Made by a program: the position numbers and the translations under genes
The notes under the pieces: generated by a model
What the model saw: only the letters and a program-made list of their open reading frames with translations
What the model was told of the DNA's origin: nothing
Database searches by the model: none
Assembly (NCBI GenBank): GCA_034430375.1
Contig: DAOUER010000038.1
Location: 1 to 60,919, forward strand
Length of the DNA: 60,919 nt
From: Dehalococcoidales bacterium
GTDB lineage: Bacteria > Chloroflexota > Dehalococcoidia > Dehalococcoidales > RBG-16-60-22
Direction: 5' to 3'
In this document: positions 46,372 to 55,286 of the stretch, one piece after another
Numbering within the stretch: position 1 is the stretch's first letter
Layout: every line of letters starts with the position of its first letter

Positions 46372-47013
46372 ATGACAACGATAATTAACGACGAAGACAT
46401 CCGTATCGATAAGCTTCAGCTGGGACCTTACGGTACCAATTGCTATACCGTAGTCTGTAACCAGACCCGGGAAAGCCTGGTGATAGATGCTCCCGCCGAA
46501 AGTGAAATAATAATGGGTAATTTGAAGGGCACTAATCCAAAGTACATCTTCCTCACTCACGACCATATGGACCATACCGGGGCGCTGGAGGCATTAAGGG
46601 GCGGACTGGGCGTACCCCTGGCTGCCCACACTCTGGATTCCAGGAGTATCTCTCCCCCGCCCGAGATATTTCTGAATGACGGCGACGCTTTGGCGGTGGG
46701 GAATCTCGATTTCAAGGTATTGCATACCCCCGGTCATACGCCGGGCGGGCTGTGTTTACTTTGGGGATTGCACCTGTTCTCCGGTGATACGCTTTTCCCG
46801 GGGGGTCCAGGCCGGACATGGTCACCGGACGCATTCCACCAGATTATCGATTCGTTAAACAATAAAGTATTCGTCCTGCCTGAAGAAACCCGGATATATC
46901 CCGGGCATGGTGAAATAACGGTTCTCAAGAAAGAAAAAGGAGAGTTCTCTGTTTTCACTTCCCGTGAGCATAGTCCCGATTTATGCGGCGACATTCTCTG
47001 GCTGACTTCCTAG
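46372..47013 (+). CDS. MBL-fold metallo-hydrolase
   Basis: THDHMDH, HTPGHT, SGDTLFPGG, YPGHG. Confidence 0.9.
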   Translation: MTTIINDEDIRIDKLQLGPYGTNCYTVVCNQTRESLVIDAPAESEIIMGNLKGTNPKYIFLTHDHMDHTGALEALRGGLGVPLAAHTLDSRSISPPPEIFLNDGDALAVGNLDFKVLHTPGHTPGGLCLLWGLHLFSGDTLFPGGPGRTWSPDAFHQIIDSLNNKVFVLPEETRIYPGHGEITVLKKEKGEFSVFTSREHSPDLCGDILWLTS

Positions 47014-47025
47014 TCTATTAGACTG

Positions 47026-47727
47026 TTAGTATCTCATCTGGATACGGTGAAAGGCTTCCCCCAGTTCATAATCCTGGTCTTCGGCCATCATCTTAGCCCA
47101 GTCCCGTAACCGGTCTCTCATTTCCAGGGGTATATCACCTACCTGGCTGATATGGCAGCCCAGGGCTTTTATCTTGATATCGAATGTATCGGTAACATCA
47201 GAGTAATGATTGGCGTCATCGGCACCCCACAGCCACACCTCCCTGACCTTATGCGGCTCCAGTCCTTCTTCCAGCAGGTCCGGGTATGATAAATGGTCGC
47301 GGGCATAGGGAAAGACCGCATCCATCACCACCTGGCCGGTAACACGGTGGTCGCGGTGCCACATGTATTTCCGGTACGGATTGGCCGTCACCACTACCTC
47401 CGGCCGGTACTGCCGTATCAAACGCACCAGGGCTTTACGAAACTCCGGTGTATCTTCCAGTCCCTGGTCCGGTAAACGCATAAACTCTACTTTGGTTACT
47501 CCCAATAGCCTGGCCGCATTCAACTGCTCTTTTTCCCTGATTTTAGCCAGTTCTTCCGGCTTCATATTACGGTCGCTGGTCCCCTTATCTCCGTTGGTAC
47601 AAACTACATATACTACTTTTTTACCCTCCCGCGTCAGCTTGACGACCGTACCGGCTACACCGAATTCGGCGTCATCCGGGTGCGGTGTAACGACCATCAT
47701 ATAAATGTCATTCTCCATTACAGGCAT
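47026..47727 (-). CDS. PIG-L family deacetylase (MshB/BshB-like)
   Basis: PHPDDAEFG, TNGDKG, HRDH; ATG 47727 follows a GAGGAG RBS. Confidence 0.88.
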   Translation of the reverse strand: MPVMENDIYMMVVTPHPDDAEFGVAGTVVKLTREGKKVVYVVCTNGDKGTSDRNMKPEELAKIREKEQLNAARLLGVTKVEFMRLPDQGLEDTPEFRKALVRLIRQYRPEVVVTANPYRKYMWHRDHRVTGQVVMDAVFPYARDHLSYPDLLEEGLEPHKVREVWLWGADDANHYSDVTDTFDIKIKALGCHISQVGDIPLEMRDRLRDWAKMMAEDQDYELGEAFHRIQMRY

Positions 47728-47755
47728 AACTCCTCGATATATCGGTGGACACATA

Positions 47756-47765
47756 AATTGTATAA
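47756..47765 (+). repeat. attL core AATTGTATAA
   Basis: Identical to 54311-54320; followed by the inner arm ...AATTGCACACGT. Confidence 0.88.
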
Positions 47766-47886
47766 AATTGCACACGTAGAATTCAAGCAAAAATGTATGA
47801 ATTATGACAAGATAATCCAGGGTCGCAAAAAGTTAGCTCAGGGAGAACTCAAGGGTGAGCTATCGTTGGCAGGAATTACAGCATGA
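47756..47886 (+). pseudogene. Detached 3' end of the integrase gene (40-aa tail, rejoined on excision)
   Basis: After the att core the frame reads KIAHVEFKQKCMNYDKIIQGRKKLAQGELKGELSLAGITA* and is in frame with integrase codons L431-Y432. Confidence 0.75.
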
Positions 47887-47990
47887 GGAGATTCGACCCC
47901 ATCAATGACGATATGCCCGGTCAGGAAGACGATGACGAAGATGAACCATGGTATTACTCGATAACTAAAACATCGCATATTTCCATCTGA
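47883..47990 (+). CDS. 35-aa acidic peptide coupled (ATGA overlap) to the stop of the circular-form integrase
   Basis: Manual translation MRRFDPINDDMPGQEDDDEDEPWYYSITKTSHISI*; AGGA upstream. Confidence 0.45.
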   Translation: MRRFDPINDDMPGQEDDDEDEPWYYSITKTSHISI

Positions 47991-48020
47991 GGAGCAGCAA
48001 AAATAGTCCCTGAATATATA

Positions 48021-48050
48021 TTGACAAAGAGCAAGTGTCATAGGTAAAAT
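48021..48050 (+). promoter_or_regulatory. Element promoter with overlapping operator-like inverted repeat
   Basis: TTGACA (48021) - 18 bp - TAAAAT (48045); TGACA-N9-TGTCA at 48022-48040. Confidence 0.65.
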
Positions 48051-48102
48051 TAAGAGAATAGACGCAAGACATTAAAAAAATAATAAGCGACCCACTTCTA
48101 AG

Positions 48103-48137
48103 TCCGGTAGCCGATGGCAAAGCTACCGGATTTTTTT
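48103..48137 (+). terminator. Intrinsic terminator between promoter and first element ORF
   Basis: TCCGGTAGC-10 nt-GCTACCGGA followed by T7. Confidence 0.8.
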
Positions 48138-48151
48138 ATTAGGGAGGAATA

Positions 48152-48337
48152 ATGCAGAATACGCAGAATATCAGGTCAGGAAGCAGAAGGGCAATCAAAA
48201 ATGGCACTGGCATCATAGTTTGTCTACCGCAGAAGTTCGTGAAAATGGCTGGTATCCAGCGGGGTGACCGGCTGGGCATTGTCTATGATGCCAGGAGCAT
48301 CACGTTCGTAAGTCGGCCTAAACCAGAGGGGAATTAG
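48152..48337 (+). CDS. AbrB/MazE/SpoVT-like DNA-binding protein
   Basis: GIIVCLPQKFVKMAGIQRGDRLGIVYD swapped-hairpin pattern; GGGAGG RBS. Confidence 0.75.
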   Translation: MQNTQNIRSGSRRAIKNGTGIIVCLPQKFVKMAGIQRGDRLGIVYDARSITFVSRPKPEGN

Positions 48338-48338
48338 C

Positions 48339-49259
48339 ATGGCTAAAAAATATGGAAACGGCGGATATCTCTACGAGGGGGATGAGCTAATGAAAATGCA
48401 ATCTGACCAGGAATGGGTCTGTAGAAACTGGATACCAAGAACCGGTAGGACATTGCTGATAGCGCAATCCAAGGTTGGCAAAACCAAGTTGGCGGTGTTT
48501 ATCGCCGATAAGGTAGCCAGGGGTGAGGACGTTTTTAACTTTGATACGGAAAAGGGTGTTGTCCTGTACGCAGCGTTGGAGCGGTGGAACGACTTCAGGG
48601 AGAAGCTACGTGACGCAACCGGTGGTAAAGTGCCGTCTAATCTCAAGACTCTTGAATACACCGAACCCCTAGTACTAGACAGTGATGATGATAAGGGATT
48701 TAACATTCTAAAACAAGTGATTTTTGATGTAAAGCCGGTGTTGGTTATCCTCGACTCGAAATTCCGAACTACAGCCAAAGGCGATAACGATGAGCCAGCT
48801 ACGATTATCTGGACTAATCGTATCAATAAGCTCATCAAAGATTGTGACTGCGCCTTCCTTATCCTGCACCACGTGCCCAAAACGAAATATAAGCAACTCG
48901 TGGACCGGGCAGCAGGTACGTCTTATCTATCCCGGTGGGCTGATGTTATTATCGGCATGAAAAGGGCTGACGAAAAAGACAAAAGGAACCCTGACCGCAT
49001 ATTGGAATTCGTCAGCAATTCCGGATATGAACCAGACGATATCACGGTTGAAATCACCGACGTCGGAATTGTTGAAACCATCATCGACCCACTGCAATTA
49101 CTGCAGACGGCTAAGGTGTTAGATGCAGTGGATTTACTGAAAAATGCCCTGCAAAAAGACTGCAAACTCAAGCCAAGTAAAACCATCAGGGAGCTATCAA
49201 AACTGCACAAGATAAGCGAAAGGACGTTCTGGGAGGCGTGGAAGTATGTTAAACCTTAA
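48339..49259 (+). CDS. AAA/RecA-fold (RepA-like) replicative helicase with C-terminal HTH-like region
   Basis: Walker A AQSKVGKT, VLYAALE, LVILDS (Walker B), LILHH, GTSYLSRWAD. Confidence 0.82.
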   Translation: MAKKYGNGGYLYEGDELMKMQSDQEWVCRNWIPRTGRTLLIAQSKVGKTKLAVFIADKVARGEDVFNFDTEKGVVLYAALERWNDFREKLRDATGGKVPSNLKTLEYTEPLVLDSDDDKGFNILKQVIFDVKPVLVILDSKFRTTAKGDNDEPATIIWTNRINKLIKDCDCAFLILHHVPKTKYKQLVDRAAGTSYLSRWADVIIGMKRADEKDKRNPDRILEFVSNSGYEPDDITVEITDVGIVETIIDPLQLLQTAKVLDAVDLLKNALQKDCKLKPSKTIRELSKLHKISERTFWEAWKYVKP

Positions 49260-49345
49260 TATATATATATATATATATTATATATTTGCAGTATGCAGTG
49301 ATGCAGTGTTTACAGTAGTGCAGTAGTGATTACTGCAACACTGCA
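49256..49345. repeat. Candidate replication origin: 32-bp pure A/T tract plus TGCAGT hexamer array
   Basis: A/T only from 49256 to 49287; TGCAGT at 49287, 49294, 49302, 49319, variant TACAGT at 49311, inverted ACTGCA at 49332 and 49340. Confidence 0.65.
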
Positions 49346-49367
49346 ATGGTTTAAGGGGGGTAAAGGT

Positions 49368-49439
49368 ATGATTGAAAACTGGACAATAATTGGAATGATA
49401 TTTTTACAGATTTTCTTAAAACTAGGGGGTGTAACATGA
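49368..49439 (+). CDS. 23-aa hydrophobic peptide
   Basis: MIENWTIIGMIFLQIFLKLGGVT*; G-rich RBS; ATGA overlap with the next ORF. Confidence 0.45.
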   Translation: MIENWTIIGMIFLQIFLKLGGVT

Positions 49440-49618
49440 GTGGATTAAAGGTAGGTGCAAATTGTTTTTTCAAATACCAGGTGAATGACGGCACCCGAAT
49501 TTTGGATTGTAGCGGAACAATCAACAAAGACCTGGAAGACCGCTATATTTTGCGGGATAGCAACAAGAAATCAAAGGTGCTCTGGAAAGATAAAATTGTG
49601 GAGGTAGTTATATTATGA
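49436..49618 (+). CDS. Hypothetical 60-aa beta-rich protein
   Basis: GGGGGT RBS; start and stop coupled to neighbours on both sides. Confidence 0.6.
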   Translation: MSGLKVGANCFFKYQVNDGTRILDCSGTINKDLEDRYILRDSNKKSKVLWKDKIVEVVIL

Positions 49619-50517
49619 AGCTATTTAAGCGGAAGAAGAAAGAGAGAGGAAGCTACAGGACAGCTGCTGACAAACTGAAGGAAGAACGAGCAAAAATCGA
49701 CATTACCCTGGCTAGGGCATTTCAAGAGGATTTGCGAACCCACCCATCTTTCACTCGCGAAATCGCCAGGAGGAAATTTGGTTTAGCTGGGCTGGAACAG
49801 GACAATGATCACTATGACGCTACACCGGTACAGCCGGACATCATGGAACTTATCCAACAATTCAGAGAAATCAAAACTGCTTTCCAGGAGGAATTCCCGG
49901 AAAAATCTGGCTCTTGGTTACAGGAAATAGCTGCCATTGCCCCAGCCATCATTGGAGCGTTAAAAGAAATGCGCCCACAGCAATCGCCACAACAACCGGA
50001 ATATTACCCGGCACCATCACAGCGACTCACTTCTACACAACCCAAGCGTATTGAGAGAACACAGGAGCCACCACCGGAACCACCACAATCGACACCGGAA
50101 CAGCCCGAACAACCCGGCACACCACAGCAAACAGAACTTGATACCACTGTTTATCAGCCAGACATCGAAGAAGCCTCTTTGGATGAGGTGAAAAATTTCG
50201 TGGAGAATATATTAGCGTTGACCCCTGAGGAAGCTACCGCCGAATTATACCTGGGCAGTAATATTGAGGGTGATTTTAGGGCTACCATCTGGCAATACCT
50301 TAGCGAAAACGACATTGACTCGCTCTGGAAACAATTACCACTGTTGGAATCGCTACCAGAGGTCGAGAAATTCAGCCCCATTATCGCTAAATTAACCAAC
50401 GACAAGACTAAAATCTGGCTATCGTTGGTTATCGATGAAATAAATCTGGTTAATTCTGGTGAAAAGACTATTGAAATTAGCGAAAATCAACCTGGAAATG
50501 ATGTTAATAACGCGTGA
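49615..50517 (+). CDS. Hypothetical 300-aa protein: basic N-terminus, amphipathic helix, Pro/Gln linker, acidic helical C-terminus
   Basis: GGAGG RBS; long ORF; no family recognised. Confidence 0.75.
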   Translation: MKLFKRKKKERGSYRTAADKLKEERAKIDITLARAFQEDLRTHPSFTREIARRKFGLAGLEQDNDHYDATPVQPDIMELIQQFREIKTAFQEEFPEKSGSWLQEIAAIAPAIIGALKEMRPQQSPQQPEYYPAPSQRLTSTQPKRIERTQEPPPEPPQSTPEQPEQPGTPQQTELDTTVYQPDIEEASLDEVKNFVENILALTPEEATAELYLGSNIEGDFRATIWQYLSENDIDSLWKQLPLLESLPEVEKFSPIIAKLTNDKTKIWLSLVIDEINLVNSGEKTIEISENQPGNDVNNA

Positions 50518-50618
50518 AAGTGGTTACAGGCGTGTTTTAAGCAAATCCACAATATATAATGAGGATTACGGAGTGCCGGAGGCACGGAGTAATCCGATTA
50601 TCGAAAATAGGAGGTACC

Positions 50619-50909
50619 ATGCCAAATTGTCCATATTGTAAGGAATGGCTACTGACTGAAGATACGCTGGAGGCTCATATTCGGGAAAAGCATTCTGACC
50701 TGATACCAGATGCCGAAAGACTGATGTCGGCCTACGCCGGTACACTCACCAAGCCAATCGTGTCAGCCATTTTACTGGGCATTAGCTTGAAATATAAAGC
50801 TGAGCCCAGCGAGGTTATTTTCCAATATTTGGAGATGTTAGGAATGCTCGACCACCTTGGGGCTGATGTGGACGATGTCCTTGAGGATGAGGGGGAGTCA
50901 GAAGAATAA
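50619..50909 (+). CDS. C2H2 zinc-finger protein
   Basis: AGGAGG RBS; CPYC-x12-H-x4-H; acidic tail. Confidence 0.75.
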   Translation: MPNCPYCKEWLLTEDTLEAHIREKHSDLIPDAERLMSAYAGTLTKPIVSAILLGISLKYKAEPSEVIFQYLEMLGMLDHLGADVDDVLEDEGESEE

Positions 50910-50989
50910 CATTGGTTGCGGGGACATGCATAAATTGCCCCTGAGGGTGGGCTTGAGGTAAAAATTGTCAATGTGATGAGTAAATAAAA

Positions 50990-51019
50990 TGTCCGGGGCT
51001 TCCAGTCCAACCCCGGACA
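50990..51019 (-). terminator. Hairpin between convergent element genes
   Basis: TGTCCGGGG-12 nt-CCCCGGACA with a T-rich tail on the minus strand. Confidence 0.65.
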
Positions 51020-51044
51020 CAGCTACAATGTGGCTTAGTCTGGA

Positions 51045-51521
51045 CTACGAGCCAGGAGCGGTGCCACCCTCGCAGGCTATCAGTGTGATAACCAAACCTT
51101 CGACGTCACCACCGATAGCATCGGCGTCAATAGCCAGGGTGACTTCTTTATCTTGGGCACCATCCGGAGCAAAGGAAGAAATCAGAAGTTTATCGATAGT
51201 TGGGTCTTCGAAGTCTCCAAGGTCTGGCCCCCACATCCAAGCGGACACGACATTCTCAGGGTCAGTTAATCGCGCGTACAAACTGACGTTGGCGTTCCCA
51301 GTGTTCGTGACTGAAATTGTTACCATGGCAGTTTCACCACCGGGGTCGGCATCACCGAAATCAATCACAGCTGGAATGACCTCGATACTTCCGATTGTAT
51401 TAATGTGTAAACTACTTGGAACCTCGGTAGAAAACAATGTGGCGGCTAATACTCCACCGCCAATCAGTAATGCCCCAATGATGGCGAAGATGAATATTTG
51501 CCTGAAAATAGACTTGAACAT
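51045..51521 (-). CDS. Exported or membrane-anchored acidic beta-sandwich protein
   Basis: GGGAGG RBS before ATG 51521; signal/TM IFIFAIIGALLIGGGVLAA; IDFGDADPGG...TISVTNTGNANVSL Ig-like pattern. Confidence 0.75.
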   Translation of the reverse strand: MFKSIFRQIFIFAIIGALLIGGGVLAATLFSTEVPSSLHINTIGSIEVIPAVIDFGDADPGGETAMVTISVTNTGNANVSLYARLTDPENVVSAWMWGPDLGDFEDPTIDKLLISSFAPDGAQDKEVTLAIDADAIGGDVEGLVITLIACEGGTAPGS

Positions 51522-51645
51522 ATTTGACCTCCCGTTTTGATTTATCGATTGAGCTGACTGGCGCACAATCATTTTATATTATGGTAACCAGTCTCAAAAA
51601 TCAAGCCAATTGGCGAAAATAGTGCGCACAATGAGCCATTTGTCC

Positions 51646-51674
51646 TTGACAATGGGTATTATTCTGTGATAATT
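51646..51674 (+). promoter_or_regulatory. Promoter of the xis/membrane-protein/int operon
   Basis: TTGACA followed about 17 bp later by GATAAT, upstream of a GGAGG RBS and ATG 51717. Coordinates approximate. Confidence 0.55.
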
Positions 51675-51716
51675 TATTATATGGCAGACACACATTCAAA
51701 CAGCGGAGGTCAAGAT

Positions 51717-51911
51717 ATGGAGTCCAAATTGCGCACTTTTGTAACAGTGGAACAAGCATCAAGAATCTTGGATGTGCATCCACAGACAGTGAGAAATTGG
51801 TACCGCCTAGGGTTAATCAGGAAGCTACAGCCAAATCCAAATGGCGGTAAAGTTTTTCTCCGATATAGCGATGTTCTTGAGCTTGTGGGGGGAGAATACG
51901 AAGATGAATAA
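51717..51911 (+). CDS. Excisionase-like MerR-type HTH protein
   Basis: VTVEQASRILDVHPQTVRNWYRLGLI...KVFLRYSDV. Confidence 0.85.
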   Translation: MESKLRTFVTVEQASRILDVHPQTVRNWYRLGLIRKLQPNPNGGKVFLRYSDVLELVGGEYEDE

Positions 51912-52149
51912 ACTCGGAGGAAGCCTTCAGCAACGGTCAACAACATCGACTGTAAGCGCATACAAAGGGCGCGGTGGCTTATATTCCCATACGCGTCGCC
52001 TCCAAGTGGGCAACAAAAAATTCGTGCGTACGGTCGATTGCGCACGGAGCTCTTATGCATTTTCAGTTGCCTTAAATTTAGTTGGTGAAGGGGCGGAGTT
52101 TTTGCCTCCTCCGCCCCAACCACCAGGGAGTAAAGATGAAGTTAGATAA
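51904..52149 (+). CDS. Hypothetical 81-aa basic protein
   Basis: ATG overlaps the xis stop; GGGGGAG RBS; stop overlaps the next start region. Confidence 0.5.
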   Translation: MNKLGGSLQQRSTTSTVSAYKGRGGLYSHTRRLQVGNKKFVRTVDCARSSYAFSVALNLVGEGAEFLPPPPQPPGSKDEVR

Positions 52150-52567
52150 ACTACTTACATTATTAATAGTAATAGCAGTTGGCTATTTGCTATATCGAGA
52201 AATCCAGCGCAATAAAAGTAATACCACGCAGATAGCCGGCACAGGAAGCGAAGGGAACCCAGTAAAGCTGGAATTGGAAATGGGTAGCTCACCATTCGCT
52301 CAGACATTCACAGTAAAGTCTGTGCCGAAACGATTCCCGGTTGCCAAGCCTACCAACGGTGAGTTAATGATTTCGACAGCCATAACCAATGCTGGCGACG
52401 TTTATATCGCTGATAGCTACGGAAGTGCTGAAGCTGGCATTCATCGATTTATGATTGAAGCTGGGAATCTCATAAATCTGGGCGTCACCAACCTTGCCGA
52501 CTGGTATTATTACGGAACTGCTGACGATATCTTCTCCATAGCTGGAGAAGTGGAAAATTTCGCCTAA
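52136..52567 (+). CDS. N-terminally membrane-anchored beta-rich protein
   Basis: GGGAG RBS; TM LLTLLIVIAVGYLLY, then a Gly/aromatic beta-rich domain. Confidence 0.75.
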   Translation: MKLDKLLTLLIVIAVGYLLYREIQRNKSNTTQIAGTGSEGNPVKLELEMGSSPFAQTFTVKSVPKRFPVAKPTNGELMISTAITNAGDVYIADSYGSAEAGIHRFMIEAGNLINLGVTNLADWYYYGTADDIFSIAGEVENFA

Positions 52568-52579
52568 AGGAGGGACAAC

Positions 52580-52966
52580 ATGGAAGGATATTTAGACAAT
52601 CCATACGAGGGATATTTAGACAATCCATACTATGATGAGGAATTGATATTGGATGAACCAAAGCCGAAGCGGAGACGCAAAAGCGCTCCCACAACGGAGA
52701 TTAGCCTCTCTGCATTGGTGTTGGTGGGCTTAGTTGGTTTATTAATCTGGTTCAAGCACACCCGGGGCATCTACCCCTGGCAAACGGAAATCGCCAGACG
52801 GTCTATCAGACCGGCTCTCGGCCCGGCTAGCAAAATGGGAATCAGACCAAACACCAGTGGCCACCCGATGAAATCACCAACTCAGGTTGGCATGGTAACT
52901 AACGTTCCCACTGACGTTAGGCCGGGTCATGGTGAGACTGATATATATCCAATCTCACCTTGGTAA
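52580..52966 (+). CDS. Single-pass membrane protein with tandem EGYLDNPY repeat
   Basis: GGAGGG RBS; EGYLDNPY twice; KPKRRRK; TM LSALVLVGLVGLLIWF. Confidence 0.75.
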   Translation: MEGYLDNPYEGYLDNPYYDEELILDEPKPKRRRKSAPTTEISLSALVLVGLVGLLIWFKHTRGIYPWQTEIARRSIRPALGPASKMGIRPNTSGHPMKSPTQVGMVTNVPTDVRPGHGETDIYPISPW

Positions 52967-53022
52967 CTAAAATTGATAACTAAAATTAACCAGGAGCAAT
53001 TTATCATAATGGAGGAAAAAAA

Positions 53023-54345
53023 ATGAAAGCACCAACCAAAACACACCAAGATTTCGATGTGGAAACACCATCCACCCTCAGACAATTCCTGGTCGAAGAA
53101 CTAAGCACCAACAACCAGGAACGCGTAAGGCGTAATCTGCCAATCGAACACTACAATGACGAAGACATCAACCAGCTAATGCCGAAGGTGTTCGCTCACA
53201 TTGAATCCAAAGCTTTGGAGCTATACAAATCTAACGAACCCTGGGCAATCAGGGAATATATCGTCCAACACATCTTGAGAGAACCCGTTGCCAGCGAAGA
53301 CAATATCAGGGTAGCCGGTGAAATATCCAAGCCCGTCGAACGGTGGCAAAGTGATACATTCGACCCGCTACAGCAAATGCGCCTCAAGCTGGAAGTCAGT
53401 CGCAAATCACGTGGATACATCAGGGAGCTAATGCGTCCGGCGAAATGGTTCGTTTCCGATGCTGGTCGCAAGAGGCGCTACACTGAGAATGAGATACTGC
53501 AATTTGTCAGGAAGCTGGCAAATAGATATGACAAGAGGGATGCGAAAGGCCACATCATAACTGAGGGCAGAGACACTAGTTCATTCGTCACCAAAATTTC
53601 TCAATTCAAACGATTCCTGGACTTACTACCGGAAGATGAGCTAACTGGCAGAAAGCAGGTTATCCCCTTTGAATTACCCAAGCTCCCCGATAAATTCAAT
53701 CAGCCAATATTCTCGCATGAAGATATCGAGCTAATCATCTACAAGGCCATCATGGATTTTAAGCCAGAGACGGTTTTACGCATGGCGTTAGCTACTGTCT
53801 ATGGCTGTCGAGTTGGTGAAATTGCATACATGGATTCCAGCAATATTGACTTGAAAACCATGACAGTGAATATCCCCACTGAAAAGAAGGGAGTGCGCAA
53901 GCCTCAGCCAATCCCGCCATCACTAAAGCCCCTATTCATGGTGCCACTGCATAAAACCAGAGACGCAAACATCAATAACCAACTGAAAGCCATCTGTAAG
54001 AAAGCCCGGATACCCTGGCTAAAAGGAATGGGCTGTCACGCCATCCGGCGAGCAGTCGTGACCATATTATATGGTGAAACTGGACTGAAAGAACTGCACA
54101 TCAAACGCTTCATGCGATGGTCTCAAGGCAGAGGTATGGGCGTCATGCCTCGATATATCAGGATACCAACTGAAACGACAGATGCTGAAGTGCTTGAAGT
54201 CCACCCATTCCGGAAAATGTGGGAGCAGATGATACCCTTCATTGAATACATGCCACAATGGGCTGACGCACGTTACCTTCCGGAGTGGAAGGATATAAGC
54301 TCACGTGTGCAATTGTATAACATTACCCAAATTGATACAATGTGA
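53023..54345 (+). CDS. Tyrosine recombinase/integrase of the element (integrated form, 440 aa)
   Basis: YGCRVGEI (R), TEKK (K), HAIRR (HxxR), RFMRWS (W in place of the second H), MPRYI (Y); the att core lies in its last codons. Confidence 0.9.
   Translation: MKAPTKTHQDFDVETPSTLRQFLVEELSTNNQERVRRNLPIEHYNDEDINQLMPKVFAHIESKALELYKSNEPWAIREYIVQHILREPVASEDNIRVAGEISKPVERWQSDTFDPLQQMRLKLEVSRKSRGYIRELMRPAKWFVSDAGRKRRYTENEILQFVRKLANRYDKRDAKGHIITEGRDTSSFVTKISQFKRFLDLLPEDELTGRKQVIPFELPKLPDKFNQPIFSHEDIELIIYKAIMDFKPETVLRMALATVYGCRVGEIAYMDSSNIDLKTMTVNIPTEKKGVRKPQPIPPSLKPLFMVPLHKTRDANINNQLKAICKKARIPWLKGMGCHAIRRAVVTILYGETGLKELHIKRFMRWSQGRGMGVMPRYIRIPTETTDAEVLEVHPFRKMWEQMIPFIEYMPQWADARYLPEWKDISSRVQLYNITQIDTM
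54311..54320 (+). repeat. attR core AATTGTATAA
   Basis: Identical to 47756-47765; preceded by the inner arm ACGTGTGC. Confidence 0.88.
54313..54341 (+). promoter_or_regulatory. Sigma70-type promoter of the mshD-like gene, overlapping attR
   Basis: TTGTAT (54313) - 17 bp - TACAAT (54336). Confidence 0.55.
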
Positions 54346-54368
54346 ACGGGAGACTACAACCACCTGCC

Positions 54369-55286
54369 ATGTCAGATACCGGATACAGCATCAGGAATTA
54401 CAGGCCGGAAGATTTTGATGGATATGTCCTTCTCTGCCAGGAATCTAATGAACTGGGACCTTCCGGACACCCGGCTTCGCCGGAAATAGCCCGAAAATGG
54501 CTGTCCTGGCCTTATTACTCACCGGAAAAGGACCTGTTCCTCCTGAAGAAGGACGGCGAATTAATCGGGAGCCTCGATCTACGCCCCGAACCGGATATCA
54601 ATCGCGTCATTATCAGGTGCTGGGTACACCCCGAGTACCGGCGACAGGGCCTTGGGAATCAACTCTTCGAACGCGCCTTCCAGCGTGCCGTTGAACTCGG
54701 GGTTGAATATATTAACATCAATGTACCCGGCAACAACAACGTTGCCAGAATCGTCCTGTCCCGATACGGATTCAAACCCATTCGTCGTTATCTTGATTTG
54801 AAACTCGATATACTCAAGATAAACAGTAAAGATATCGATAATGCATCCCGTGAATGCCGATGCCTGGAAAGCGGCGAGGAAAATGAACTGTCGCGTGTGC
54901 AAAACCTGGCCTTTGACGGACACTGGGGCTATCATCCCAATACCCCGGAAACAATAGCTTTCTATACTCAGTTAGGTACACCGACGACGGATAATATCAT
55001 CCTCTCCTGCGAAGAAGACAAGATAGTCGGCTACTGCTGGGTGGAAATACTACCCGGTGATGAACCTGCCGGGGAAATCCACATGATAGGTGCCGACCCG
55101 GCATACCAGGGCCAAGGAATCGGCCGGAAGGTCCTGCTGGCCGGATTGGCCTATCTCCGGGAAAAGGGGATATCAACGGCTTATCTAAGCGTGGACAGCG
55201 AGAATAAATCGGCACTCAACCTGTATGATTCGCTGGGATTTGAGCTACACCGTAAAACCCTCTGGTACGAAAAGAAGGTATCTTAA
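54369..55286 (+). CDS. Tandem-GNAT acetyltransferase, MshD-like
   Basis: Two GNAT repeats; EIHMIGADPAYQGQGIG, YLSVDSENKSALNLYDSLGF. ORF track start is GTG 54342. Confidence 0.8.
   Translation: MSDTGYSIRNYRPEDFDGYVLLCQESNELGPSGHPASPEIARKWLSWPYYSPEKDLFLLKKDGELIGSLDLRPEPDINRVIIRCWVHPEYRRQGLGNQLFERAFQRAVELGVEYININVPGNNNVARIVLSRYGFKPIRRYLDLKLDILKINSKDIDNASRECRCLESGEENELSRVQNLAFDGHWGYHPNTPETIAFYTQLGTPTTDNIILSCEEDKIVGYCWVEILPGDEPAGEIHMIGADPAYQGQGIGRKVLLAGLAYLREKGISTAYLSVDSENKSALNLYDSLGFELHRKTLWYEKKVS

What the first reader, a model, noticed from the sequence alone, without database searches (positions are those of the whole stretch)
47756..47886. attP lies inside the integrase gene: integration swaps the enzyme's C-terminal tail
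The core overlaps integrase codons Q430-N433. Integrated form: ...RVQLY-NITQIDTM* (440 aa; tail from host DNA). Circular form: ...RVQLY-KIAHVEFKQKCMNYDKIIQGRKKLAQGELKGELSLAGITA* (472 aa), open and in frame across the junction. Unlike SSV-type split integrases, all catalytic residues stay on the retained fragment, so both forms could be active. The basic, nonpolar-ended tail could be a degradation tag, oligomerisation helix or directionality module. That would make a recombination-encoded switch like the integration-dependent repressor truncation of mycobacteriophage BPs.
Basis: partly seen in the sequence, partly recalled or inferred. Interest (0 to 1): 0.9.

Follow-up and report, generated by a model that had tools for sequence, protein, structure and literature searches.

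The report
Integrase tail swapped by integration
A 6.5-kb mobile element in a Dehalococcoidales genome carries its attachment site inside its own integrase gene, so insertion replaces the enzyme's last ~40 residues with 8 host-encoded ones; relatives encode a conserved version of that tail, and the arrangement is already known from Myxococcus phage Mx8.

Summary
AATTGTATAA occurs at 47756-47765 and 54311-54320. It bounds a 6.56-kb element whose integrase (53023-54345, 440 aa) crosses the right copy at codons Q430-N433. Rejoining the ends gives a textbook core site, ACGTGTGCAATT-GTATAA-AATTGCACACGT. The integrase frame then stays open for 40 more codons (472 aa). Uninterrupted attB sites in Dehalococcoidales MAGs match the joined flanks.

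In database homologues, conservation stops exactly at the crossover. I rebuilt the circular junction in seven other independent elements and found two contigs with intact attP. All ten junctions continue in the integrase frame for 27-59 codons. Nine of them share a basic helical tail with the motif L-x-x-[LI]-[FL]-x-x-[KR]-P-[HYW]-L-[RK]. Synonymous substitutions predominate in that frame.

Two caveats apply. The window's own tail is the most diverged: it lacks P-H, the motif HMM does not detect it, and a position-restricted test gives p about 0.02. The extreme C-termini are not conserved, so a shared degradation tag is unlikely.

The concept is not new: phage Mx8 IntP/IntX does the same. This is an independent bacterial, Xer-like family. 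What the tail does is inferred, not shown.

The parts
47756..47765 (+). attL core: left copy of the 10-bp direct repeat AATTGTATAA. The spacer (crossover region) GTATAA is 47760-47765.
   Evidence: Host DNA to the left continues as in the empty sites of L059, L060 and L046.
47766..47777 (+). P' core-type arm AATTGCACACGT, a perfect inverted copy of the P arm at 54303-54314.
   Evidence: inverted repeat I3; 18/18 match.
47758..47886 (+). Detached 3' end of int. In the circular form it encodes L431-Y432 followed by the 40-aa tail KIAHVEFKQKCMNYDKIIQGRKKLAQGELKGELSLAGITA and a stop at 47884-47886. The weak family-motif match YDKIIQGRKKLAQ starts at 47803.
47883..47990 (+). 35-aa acidic ORF (MRRFDPINDDMPGQEDDDEDEPWYYSITKTSHISI). 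Its ATG overlaps the tail's stop codon (ATGA). It was called as a gene on contig L058. Whether it belongs to the switch is unknown.
   Evidence: no Pfam match.
48152..48337 (+). 61-aa AbrB/MazE-like small protein of the element.
   Evidence: Its homologue in L050/L051 has a weak PF04014 (MazE_antitoxin) hit. It is shared with L015, L018 and L020.
48339..49259 (+). RecA-family ATPase (AAA_25), the likely replication or maintenance protein of the element.
   Evidence: PF13481, 6e-24; a 52% identical homologue sits in element L050/L051.
51666..51911 (+). 81-aa HTH_17/MerR-type protein, a candidate excisionase (recombination directionality factor).
   Evidence: PF12728, 4.5e-7; phrog_66, excisionase and regulator; homologues in L012, L013 and L021.
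53023..54345 (+). Integrated-form integrase gene (440 aa). Residues 1-432 are element-encoded; residues 433-440 (NITQIDTM) and the stop come from host DNA.
   Evidence: Fold of homologue P0008: Brujita Int, XerA, XerH.
54303..54314 (+). P core-type arm ACGTGTGCAATT, inside int codons 427-431.
54311..54320 (+). attR core: right copy of AATTGTATAA (spacer GTATAA at 54315-54320), overlapping int codons Q430-N433.
54321..54345 (+). Host-derived end of the integrated int (codons 433-440 and TGA). It is part of the conserved PIG-L/GNAT intergenic region and carries the right half of the attB-region inverted repeat (GATACAAT).
   Evidence: The same host-type tail, NI..(I/V)DTM*, is seen in P0003 and P0007.

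Best explanation
Window 47756-54320 is an integrated 6.56-kb mobile element of a Dehalococcoidales bacterium. It is neither a recognisable phage nor a known plasmid. Its Xer-like tyrosine integrase recombines a simple core site of two 12-bp inverted arms around a 6-bp spacer. That site lies inside the int reading frame, about 40 codons before the stop codon of the free form.

Shown: strand exchange in the spacer leaves the last 40 codons at attL (47766-47886). It fuses int at attR to 8 host codons and a host stop. The free or circular element therefore encodes Int-long (472 aa) and the integrated element Int-short (440 aa). Both keep all catalytic residues.

Shown across the family: the part cut off is a translated, selected C-terminal extension. 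It is predicted as a helix, then [KR]-P-[HYW]-L, then a second, basic helix.

Inferred: the extension lies beyond the canonical recombinase fold, in the region where tyrosine recombinases contact neighbouring protomers. Removing it probably changes synapsis, activity or directionality. On this reading, Int-long is the integration-proficient enzyme made only from the excised element. Int-short is a weakened or excisionase-dependent form that keeps the integrated state stable. Excision restores the long gene. This is the logic described for phage Mx8 IntP/IntX.
For: Att sites:
- The 18/18 spacer-plus-arm match and the perfect palindromic attP on rejoining.
- Empty attB sites in MAGs with 84-87% identical PIG-L genes and in L046.

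Family property:
- In 22 homologues, conservation ends exactly at V-Q-L/F, the core. The C-termini then diverge. Elements at the same attB share the host-type tail NI..DTM*.
- Rebuilt circular junctions in L008, L015, L017, L018, L020, L034 and L051 continue in frame for 27-59 codons. So do the contigs with intact attP, L001 (P0008, 471 aa) and L049 (P0063). All nine share L-x-x-[LI]-[FL]-x-x-[KR]-P-[HYW]-L-[RK].
- In the seven junctions tested frame by frame, the int frame is open for 34-59 codons and the other two frames for 0-28.

The tail is coding:
- pN/pS is 0.36 in the int frame against 0.63 and 2.28 in the other two.
- The invariant Leu uses CTA, CTG, TTG, CTC and TTA.
- There is no conserved internal Met, so the tail can only be translated as a fusion to Int.
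- The motif occurs nowhere else in these loci.
- The degraded elements L042 and L043 carry an in-frame stop in the tail, and their int is a remnant.

The window's own tail:
- It has the same frame, length (40 aa), position and basic character (pI 9.6).
- Its best motif match, YDKIIQGRKKLAQ, ranks 40 of 71,820 in the window. It is by far the best in any frame of 47756-48000.

Structure:
- The AF2 model of P0008 has pLDDT 77. Helix 420-445 spans the crossover, a break falls at K-P, and a second helix covers 447-467.
- The best fold matches are Brujita Int, XerA and XerH.

Precedent: Mx8 (PMC6070905).
Against: - The window's tail is not detected by an HMM of the other tails: -0.6 bits, rank 396 of 1657 six-frame pieces.
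- Pairwise similarity reaches p of about 0.02 only against L001 and L017, and is not significant against five others.
- The window's tail lacks the P-[HYW] pair, the best conserved part of the motif.
- No close relative of the window's element (integrases 58-73% identical) could be recovered with its attL side. The only other contig found, L058, is identical and starts inside the tail.
- The pN/pS estimate rests on 19 codons and four related sequences.
- L049 has an ABC-transporter ATPase downstream of its attP, so it may not be a free circle.
- Tail confidence in the AF2 model is only 50-75.
- Nothing here measures the activity, stability or expression of either form. The functional consequence is inferred by analogy.
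Confidence: 0.7

Rival explanations
1. The family's tail is real, but the window's own 40-codon extension is a decayed or neutral read-through. On this view the element's integrase works the same in both forms, and the open frame here is chance.
For: The motif HMM does not detect the window's tail. P-[HYW] is replaced by K-K. The tail's last 16 residues are not basic, unlike most others. An open frame of 41 codons in 43% GC DNA is expected by chance at roughly 0.06-0.15.
Against: The element looks recently active: its arms are perfect 12/12 inverted copies, int is intact, and near-identical copies (98-100%) turn up in contigs from other samples. The best motif-like match in all three frames lies in the int frame at the expected distance from the core, 25 residues against 20-25 in relatives. 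The length (40 aa) and pI (9.6) fall within the family range.
Confidence: 0.2
2. The tail is a C-terminal degradation tag, as on the BPs repressor and integrase. Int-long would then be unstable (ClpXP or Lon), and integration would create a stable Int-short.
For: The window's tail ends in non-polar residues (LAGITA). [quoted passage not shown]
Against: The last five residues differ in every element: AGITA, KRGSR, HRRNA, SRRHG, AVKSP, KGLLE, TVNGS, IHWKD, KARWR, LERRR. What is conserved is an internal helix and the K-P-H-L motif 20-25 residues after the core, not the terminus. A stable integrase in the integrated state would also work against stable integration unless it is otherwise restrained.
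Confidence: 0.07
3. The conserved stretch next to the P' arm is a DNA or RNA element, such as accessory binding sites of attP, a promoter, or the int terminator. Its open frame would then be incidental.
For: It lies directly beside the core site, where accessory sites lie in lambda-type attP. The first tail residues (K-I-A) are dictated by the arm sequence AAAATTGCA.
Against: Differences are concentrated at third codon positions of the int frame (45, against 33 and 20), and pN/pS is lowest in that frame. The invariant Leu uses five codons. Length differences between tails preserve the frame. Distant members keep amino-acid but not nucleotide similarity. No Rfam family reaches its gathering score there.
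Confidence: 0.03

Closest known systems
Myxococcus xanthus phage Mx8 integrase IntP/IntX (and phage Mx9)
   Same: attP lies within the int coding sequence near its 3' end. Integration creates a recombinant int with a new, host-derived 3' end. The enzyme is not inactivated but altered, and the arrangement has been described as a molecular switch between the integrated and free states (PMC6070905, citing Tojo 1996 and Magrini 1999).
   Different: There is no detectable sequence relationship: tblastn of the window's Int against 50,697 phage records finds nothing at E <= 1e-3. I did not check that Mx8 is among those records. The carrier here is a 6.5-9.5-kb element without recognisable virion genes, in Dehalococcoidales. 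The exchanged piece is short (27-59 aa) and carries a family-wide motif. From memory, not checked here, Mx8 exchanges about 112 residues for 13. A functional change has been shown for Mx8 but not here.
SSV-type ('suicidal', type I) archaeal integrases (SSV1/2, pTN3, pT26-2)
   Same: The recombination site lies inside the integrase's own gene, so integrase, att site and directionality control form one compact module (PMC8371274).
   Different: In SSV-type systems the gene is split into Int(N) and Int(C), the catalytic domain is separated from the N-terminal part, and the fragments are inactive. Here every catalytic residue and 432 of 472 residues stay together. SSV-type integrases carry Pfam PF16795; this family gives only weak PF00589 hits. 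The review states that such integrases are exclusively archaeal, whereas this family is bacterial.
Integration-dependent immunity of mycobacteriophages BPs, Brujita and Charlie
   Same: attP lies inside a coding sequence, so the free and integrated genomes express proteins with different C-termini (PMC3694055). The integrase is a simple, arm-less enzyme, and Brujita Int is the best structural match.
   Different: In BPs the gene crossed by attP is the repressor, not int. The removed piece is a degradation tag. Here the conserved part is internal, and no common terminal tag exists.
Xer-type recombinases (archaeal XerA, XerH) and their core sites
   Same: The fold matches. The site architecture also matches: two inverted arms of about 11-12 bp around a 6-bp spacer. 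The next-nearest sequence relatives are ~275-aa proteins, of Xer size, which I did not annotate.
   Different: These integrases carry a helical N-terminal extension of about 130 aa and a C-terminal extension of about 90 aa beyond the catalytic Tyr. They sit on mobile elements with attP/attB specificity rather than acting at a chromosomal dif site.

Membership tests
Tyrosine recombinase / phage integrase superfamily | Catalytic R-K-H-R-[H/W]-Y residues in the C-terminal domain | tested here: met
   R263, K288, H339, R342, W366 and Y378 are invariant in 23 sequences. The PF00589 hit is weak (E 4.8e-4, below the gathering score). phrog_1 integrase scores 3.5e-10.
Tyrosine recombinase / phage integrase superfamily | Recombinase fold of the catalytic and core-binding domains | tested here: met
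   AF2 model of homologue P0008, pLDDT 77. Foldseek probability is 1.00 to Brujita Int 5vfz, XerA 4a8e/5hxy, XerH 5jk0, IntI 2a3v and lambda Int. TM-scores are modest (0.35-0.58 on the target) because of domain orientation and the extensions.
Tyrosine recombinase / phage integrase superfamily | Core site of inverted arms around a 6-8-bp overlap region, duplicated as a direct repeat at the element's ends | tested here: met
   ACGTGTGCAATT-GTATAA-AATTGCACACGT on rejoining the ends, with a 10-bp direct repeat. The same architecture is seen in L001, L049, L018 and L051.
Mx8-type arrangement (attP inside int, C-terminus exchanged on integration) | attP core within the int reading frame, downstream of all catalytic residues | tested here: met
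   The core lies at codons 430-433 of 472 and the catalytic Tyr at 378.
Mx8-type arrangement (attP inside int, C-terminus exchanged on integration) | The integrated form encodes an intact Int with a host-derived C-terminus | tested here: met
   The 440-aa ORF ends NITQIDTM*, read from the attB region. The same region is contiguous in the empty sites.
Mx8-type arrangement (attP inside int, C-terminus exchanged on integration) | The two forms differ in recombination activity or specificity | not testable with these tools
   This needs recombination assays with both proteins. Conservation of the tail is only indirect support.
Mx8-type arrangement (attP inside int, C-terminus exchanged on integration) | Sequence homology to Mx8 or Mx9 Int | tested here: not met
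   No tblastn match in 50,697 phage records. I did not check that Mx8 and Mx9 are in that collection. The resemblance is therefore one of arrangement, not of descent.
SSV-type 'suicidal' integrases | Integration splits int into separate Int(N) and Int(C) genes and disrupts the enzyme | tested here: not met
   Only the last 40 of 472 codons are detached, and the remaining ORF is closed by a host stop after 8 codons.
SSV-type 'suicidal' integrases | Phage_integr_3 (PF16795) domain | tested here: not met
   The Pfam scan of the window's Int and of P0008 lists only PF00589.
BPs-type integration-dependent switch (C-terminal degradation tag removed by integration) | A conserved ssrA-like, non-polar C-terminal tag on the free-form protein | tested here: not met
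   The last five residues differ in all ten tails and are mostly charged or polar.

The most novel reading that the evidence does not exclude
The conserved helix-KP[HYW]L-basic tail is a built-in directionality module of a whole bacterial integrase family. Only the excised element can make the integration-competent Int-long. The integrated element makes Int-short, which excises only with the element's HTH_17 protein or not at all. Recombination would then rewrite its own enzyme at every cycle. That would be a bacterial counterpart of the archaeal 'all-in-one' integrase modules, evolved independently of Mx8, in a clade of small elements of uncultured Dehalococcoidales.
Probability: 0.3. Interest if true: 0.7.

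Novelty: new member of a known kind. Interest (0 to 1): 0.55.

Why it matters
- It shows that placing attP inside int, so that recombination edits the recombinase, is not a curiosity confined to Mx8 and archaeal SSV-type elements. It is a conserved, selected feature of an independent bacterial integrase family.
- A recent review calls own-gene-targeting integrases exclusively archaeal (PMC8371274).
- The family offers natural paired enzymes (Int-long and Int-short), simple 30-bp sites, and at least ten different attB specificities. That makes it a compact system for studying how a C-terminal extension controls the directionality of tyrosine recombinases. It may also yield small self-limiting integration tools.
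- There is a practical lesson for annotation. Database integrases of this family are almost all the truncated prophage form. Their true C-terminus can only be found by rejoining attR to attL.

Tried and rejected
1. tRNA target: ARAGORN finds no tRNA or tmRNA in the window. attB is intergenic.

2. IMG/VR scan for relatives: none found. The phage and plasmid collections give no tblastn match either, so the element cannot be filed as a known phage or plasmid.

3. Attempts to recover the attL side of the window's closest relatives all failed:
   - The P0003 contigs L002-L005 stop short of attL.
   - A search with the AAA_25 protein gave only one, more distant, element. That element, L051, was still useful.
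   - A search with the 61-aa protein gave only an identical contig that starts inside the tail.
   - The P0005 and P0006 contigs (L097, L096) end at, or show no clear, P' arm.

4. HMM of the family tail against the six-frame translation of the window: the window's tail is not detected. I report this as a negative result.

5. L006 (P0009, on a 392-kb contig): I found no convincing attL within 10 kb and no tail motif. It is unresolved.

6. Rfam scan of 47000-55000: nothing reaches a gathering score.

7. Degron idea: rejected as a family-wide explanation because the termini are not conserved.

8. The primary Mx8 papers (PMC93897, PMC178153, PMC219415) are not held in the library. Mx8 details beyond the review PMC6070905 rest on my memory.

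Full report
WHAT IS IN THE WINDOW

The finding's interval 47756-47886 is the left end of an inserted element. The integrase it refers to is the ORF 53023-54345 (+), 440 aa, ending ...RVQLYNITQIDTM*. The 10-bp sequence AATTGTATAA occurs at 47756-47765 and at 54311-54320.

Each copy has a 12-bp arm on its element side: AATTGCACACGT at 47766-47777 and ACGTGTGCAATT at 54303-54314. The arms are perfect inverted copies of each other. A circularised element would therefore read ACGTGTGCAATT-GTATAA-AATTGCACACGT. That is the classic core site of a tyrosine recombinase, with two inverted binding arms around a 6-bp overlap region.

The 18-nt 'spacer plus reverse-complemented arm' matches 18/18 at 47760. 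The next best place in the 60.9-kb window scores 13/18. The frame at attL is the same relative to the core, so the circular form reads ...RVQLY-KIAHVEFKQKCMNYDKIIQGRKKLAQGELKGELSLAGITA* (472 aa).

THE BOUNDARIES ARE REAL

The element sits between a PIG-L-family deacetylase gene (47026-about 47727, minus strand) and a double-GNAT acetyltransferase gene (about 54369-55286, plus strand). In Dehalococcoidales MAGs whose PIG-L protein is 84-87% identical, the two genes are neighbours.
- The intergenic DNA in L059 and L060 reads ...ACTATAAATTGTATAACATTCTACGAGTTGATACAATGTGACC....
- The window's joined flanks read ...ACATAAATTGTATAA|CATTACCCAAATTGATACAATGTGAAC....
- About two thirds of the 36 MAG loci examined carry the same conserved site, as does the more distant L046.

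The host is therefore a Dehalococcoidales (Chloroflexota) bacterium. attB is the left half of a conserved inverted repeat in a divergent promoter region.

THE ELEMENT

Its 6.56 kb encode:
- a 35-aa acidic ORF;
- an AbrB/MazE-like 61-aa protein;
- a RecA-family AAA_25 ATPase;
- several proteins without matches, one with a C2H2-like zinc finger;
- an HTH_17/MerR-type 81-aa protein, a candidate excisionase;
- the integrase.

No virion genes are recognisable. The integrase has no tblastn match in 50,697 phage records or 72,556 plasmids, and no relative in IMG/VR. Related elements of 6.5-9.5 kb share different subsets of these genes.

THE INTEGRASE FAMILY

The family is small: 22 proteins in the 5.8-billion-cluster search and 44 representatives at E < 1e-30 among 1.84 billion. 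Only one genome of the 185,579-species set carries it, a Dehalococcoidia MAG.

R263, K288, H339, R342, W366 and Y378 are invariant. An AF2 model of homologue P0008 (pLDDT 77) matches Brujita Int, archaeal XerA, XerH, IntI and lambda Int. It is thus a simple Xer-like tyrosine recombinase with N- and C-terminal extensions.

THE KEY TEST: IS THE TAIL A FAMILY FEATURE?

In the alignment of database homologues, conservation runs up to V-Q-L/F, which is the core, and stops. After that the sequences end within 0-17 residues with unrelated tails. The exception is elements inserted at the same attB, which share the host-type tail (NITQIDTM, NILRVDTM, NIGFVDTM). It is in fact what integrated copies must look like.

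I located attL in every locus that reached far enough and rebuilt the circular junction. The tails after the core are:
- L008: YCTHKDTTLKALQEQLLKEKPYLRKGNREAIQAVKSP*
- L018: YCKGKTTLKALQEQLLEKKPYLRVKDIKGLLE*
- L034: LHTQGTSLKVLQEQLLKEKPYLRKGKGEVMQTVNGS*
- L020: NCTRKTTTLKEVQAQILKDRPWLRK... (57 aa)
- L017: YFANTDISFDTILRGLFKARPHLRDTDKHIKFMRSRRHG*
- L015: NTHINARIEDILKENPHLEKVLQNVKAGQDRRSERMKEVAKARWR*
- L051: YQFKECQSLEEIFKGKPHLMRLLERRR*

Two contigs carry int contiguous with an intact palindromic attP and the tail:
- L001 (P0008, 471 aa; AATGCAATT-TAATAA-AATTGCATT): KIAFTELNLDRLFQEKPHLKEISERLRLGERSLLSRKRGSR*
- L049 (P0063; TGCAATT-TAACAA-AATTGCA): KIAYPKLDEIYTRRSHLAKLKEKLKQLRHKSKHRRNA*

These integrases are only 32-50% identical to the window's and use at least ten different attB sites. 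All share L-x-x-[LI]-[FL]-x-x-[KR]-P-[HYW]-L-[RK], 20-25 residues after the core, followed by a basic stretch (pI 9.5-12).

THE TAIL IS CODING, NOT JUST CONSERVED DNA

- In the seven junctions tested, the int frame is open for 34-59 codons, against 0-28 in the other two frames.
- Over the motif block, pN/pS is 0.36 in the int frame, against 0.63 and 2.28. Differences are concentrated at third positions.
- The invariant Leu is encoded by five different codons.
- No internal Met is conserved, so the tail can only be made as a fusion to Int.
- The motif occurs nowhere else in these loci.
- The only junction with an in-frame stop (L042, L043) belongs to a mini-element whose int is a remnant.

CAVEAT FOR THIS WINDOW

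The window's own tail is the outlier.
- An HMM built from the other tails does not detect it (rank 396 of 1657 six-frame pieces).
- Pairwise scores beat shuffles only against L001 and L017 (p about 0.02).
- An ungapped profile of the 13-residue block finds YDKIIQGRKKLAQ at 47803, rank 40 of 71,820 positions in the window. It is by far the best in any frame of 47756-48000 (10.9 against 3.2), at the expected distance from the core.
- For the roughly 29 positions defined in advance, this corresponds to p of about 0.016.
- The hydrophobic positions and the Asp are kept, but P-H has become K-K.

The arms are perfect, int is intact, and near-identical copies occur in contigs from other samples. I therefore read this as lineage divergence rather than decay, but I cannot prove it. 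No attL side of a close relative could be recovered.

MECHANISM

Shown:
- attP lies in int.
- Integration detaches the last 40 codons and supplies 8 host codons plus a stop.
- The catalytic residues are retained.
- In the family, the detached piece is a selected, translated extension.

Inferred:
- The AF2 model puts a long helix across the crossover point (420-445), a break at K-P, and a second helix (447-467), beyond the canonical fold.
- In Cre, lambda Int and the Xer proteins, the segment after the catalytic Tyr contacts neighbouring protomers and controls which subunits are active. This is established knowledge, not tested here.
- Swapping the extension is therefore most likely to alter synapsis, activity or directionality. 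Int-long, made only by the excised element, would be the integrating form. Int-short would be a weakened or excisionase-dependent form.

The degradation-tag idea is not supported as a general mechanism, because the termini are not conserved.

COMPARISON WITH WHAT IS KNOWN

- Phage Mx8 (and Mx9) is the exact precedent for the arrangement. attP lies within int, integration gives int a new 3' end, and the enzyme is altered rather than inactivated. The review describes this as a molecular switch (PMC6070905).
- Archaeal SSV-type 'suicidal' integrases also target their own gene, but they split it into inactive halves. A 2021 review calls them exclusively archaeal (PMC8371274).
- BPs-type phages place attP in the repressor gene and remove a degradation tag (PMC3694055).
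- The present family is unrelated in sequence to any integrase in the phage collection searched (I did not verify that Mx8 itself is in it), lives on small non-phage elements of an uncultured bacterial order, and adds a conserved tail motif.

I therefore file it as a new, independent member of the Mx8 kind of arrangement, not as a new principle.

VERDICT

Interest is moderate (0.55). It is a clean, family-wide and testable example of a recombinase that edits its own gene, but the idea has been known since 1996-1999, and the window's own tail is the weakest representative.

Noticed in passing
window 47750-47765 + 54321-54345; L059-L094 upstream of the PIG-L genes: attB is the left half of a conserved inverted repeat (AATTGTATAAC...N...GGTACAATT). 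It lies in the divergent promoter region between the PIG-L deacetylase gene and the double-GNAT (MshD-like architecture) gene in many Dehalococcoidales MAGs, and is probably an operator. The insertion separates the two half-sites by 6.5 kb and could deregulate both genes.
   Followed up: partly
window 48021-48140 (+): A near-consensus promoter (TTGACA, 18 nt, TAAAAT; 11 of 12) is followed about 55 nt later by a hairpin CCGGTAGC-N10-GCTACCGG and a run of seven T. This looks like a short RNA or an attenuated leader, just upstream of the AbrB/MazE-like gene. The terminator scan missed it because the loop is 10 nt. No Rfam match.
   Followed up: partly
window 47883-47990 (+): A 35-aa very acidic ORF whose ATG overlaps the stop codon of the circular-form integrase (ATGA). 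In the circular form it could be translationally coupled to Int-long. It was called as a gene on L058.
   Followed up: no
window 52583-52630 (+): Tandem 24-bp repeat (96% identical) inside ORF 52580-52966, encoding EGYLDNPY twice. The protein has a predicted membrane segment and no family match.
   Followed up: no
L034 6068-7860; L042 125-2248; L043 8164-10289: Mini-elements of 1.8-2.1 kb are flanked by attL and attR, with only a C-terminal remnant of int (residues about 295-413). L034 still has an intact tail ORF at attL, whereas L042 and L043 have an in-frame TAG. They may be non-autonomous derivatives that a related integrase could mobilise in trans.
   Followed up: partly
L049 839-1606: On this 1.6-kb contig, int with an intact attP and tail is followed by a 73-aa ORF and then a DrrA-type ABC-transporter ATPase. 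This could be cargo, a host gene (in which case int-attP sits in an unexpected context) or an assembly chimera.
   Followed up: no
L058 1-80 (= window 47809-47886): A contig from another sample, identical in sequence, begins inside the tail about 50 nt from attL. This is where an assembly graph would branch if integrated and excised forms coexisted in the sample.
   Followed up: no
P0021 (277 aa, 3938-bp contig): A hybrid protein: an AbrB-like N-terminus (GGSRVLVIPRTIAEMLGISYGDEIGIV) is fused to integrase residues from about 148 onward, and it ends prematurely. It is probably an internal deletion derivative of a related element.
   Followed up: no
L006 10001-11257 (392-kb contig): This family integrase has no detectable attL or tail motif within 10 kb upstream. 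A second, fragmentary Phage_integrase gene lies 3.5 kb downstream. The state of this copy is unresolved.
   Followed up: partly
window 51045-51572 (-): The only sizeable minus-strand ORF of the element (175 aa) has an N-terminal membrane or signal segment and a beta-rich remainder, with no match in Pfam or PHROGs. It overlaps a plus-strand ORF (50989-51540) that looks spurious.
   Followed up: no
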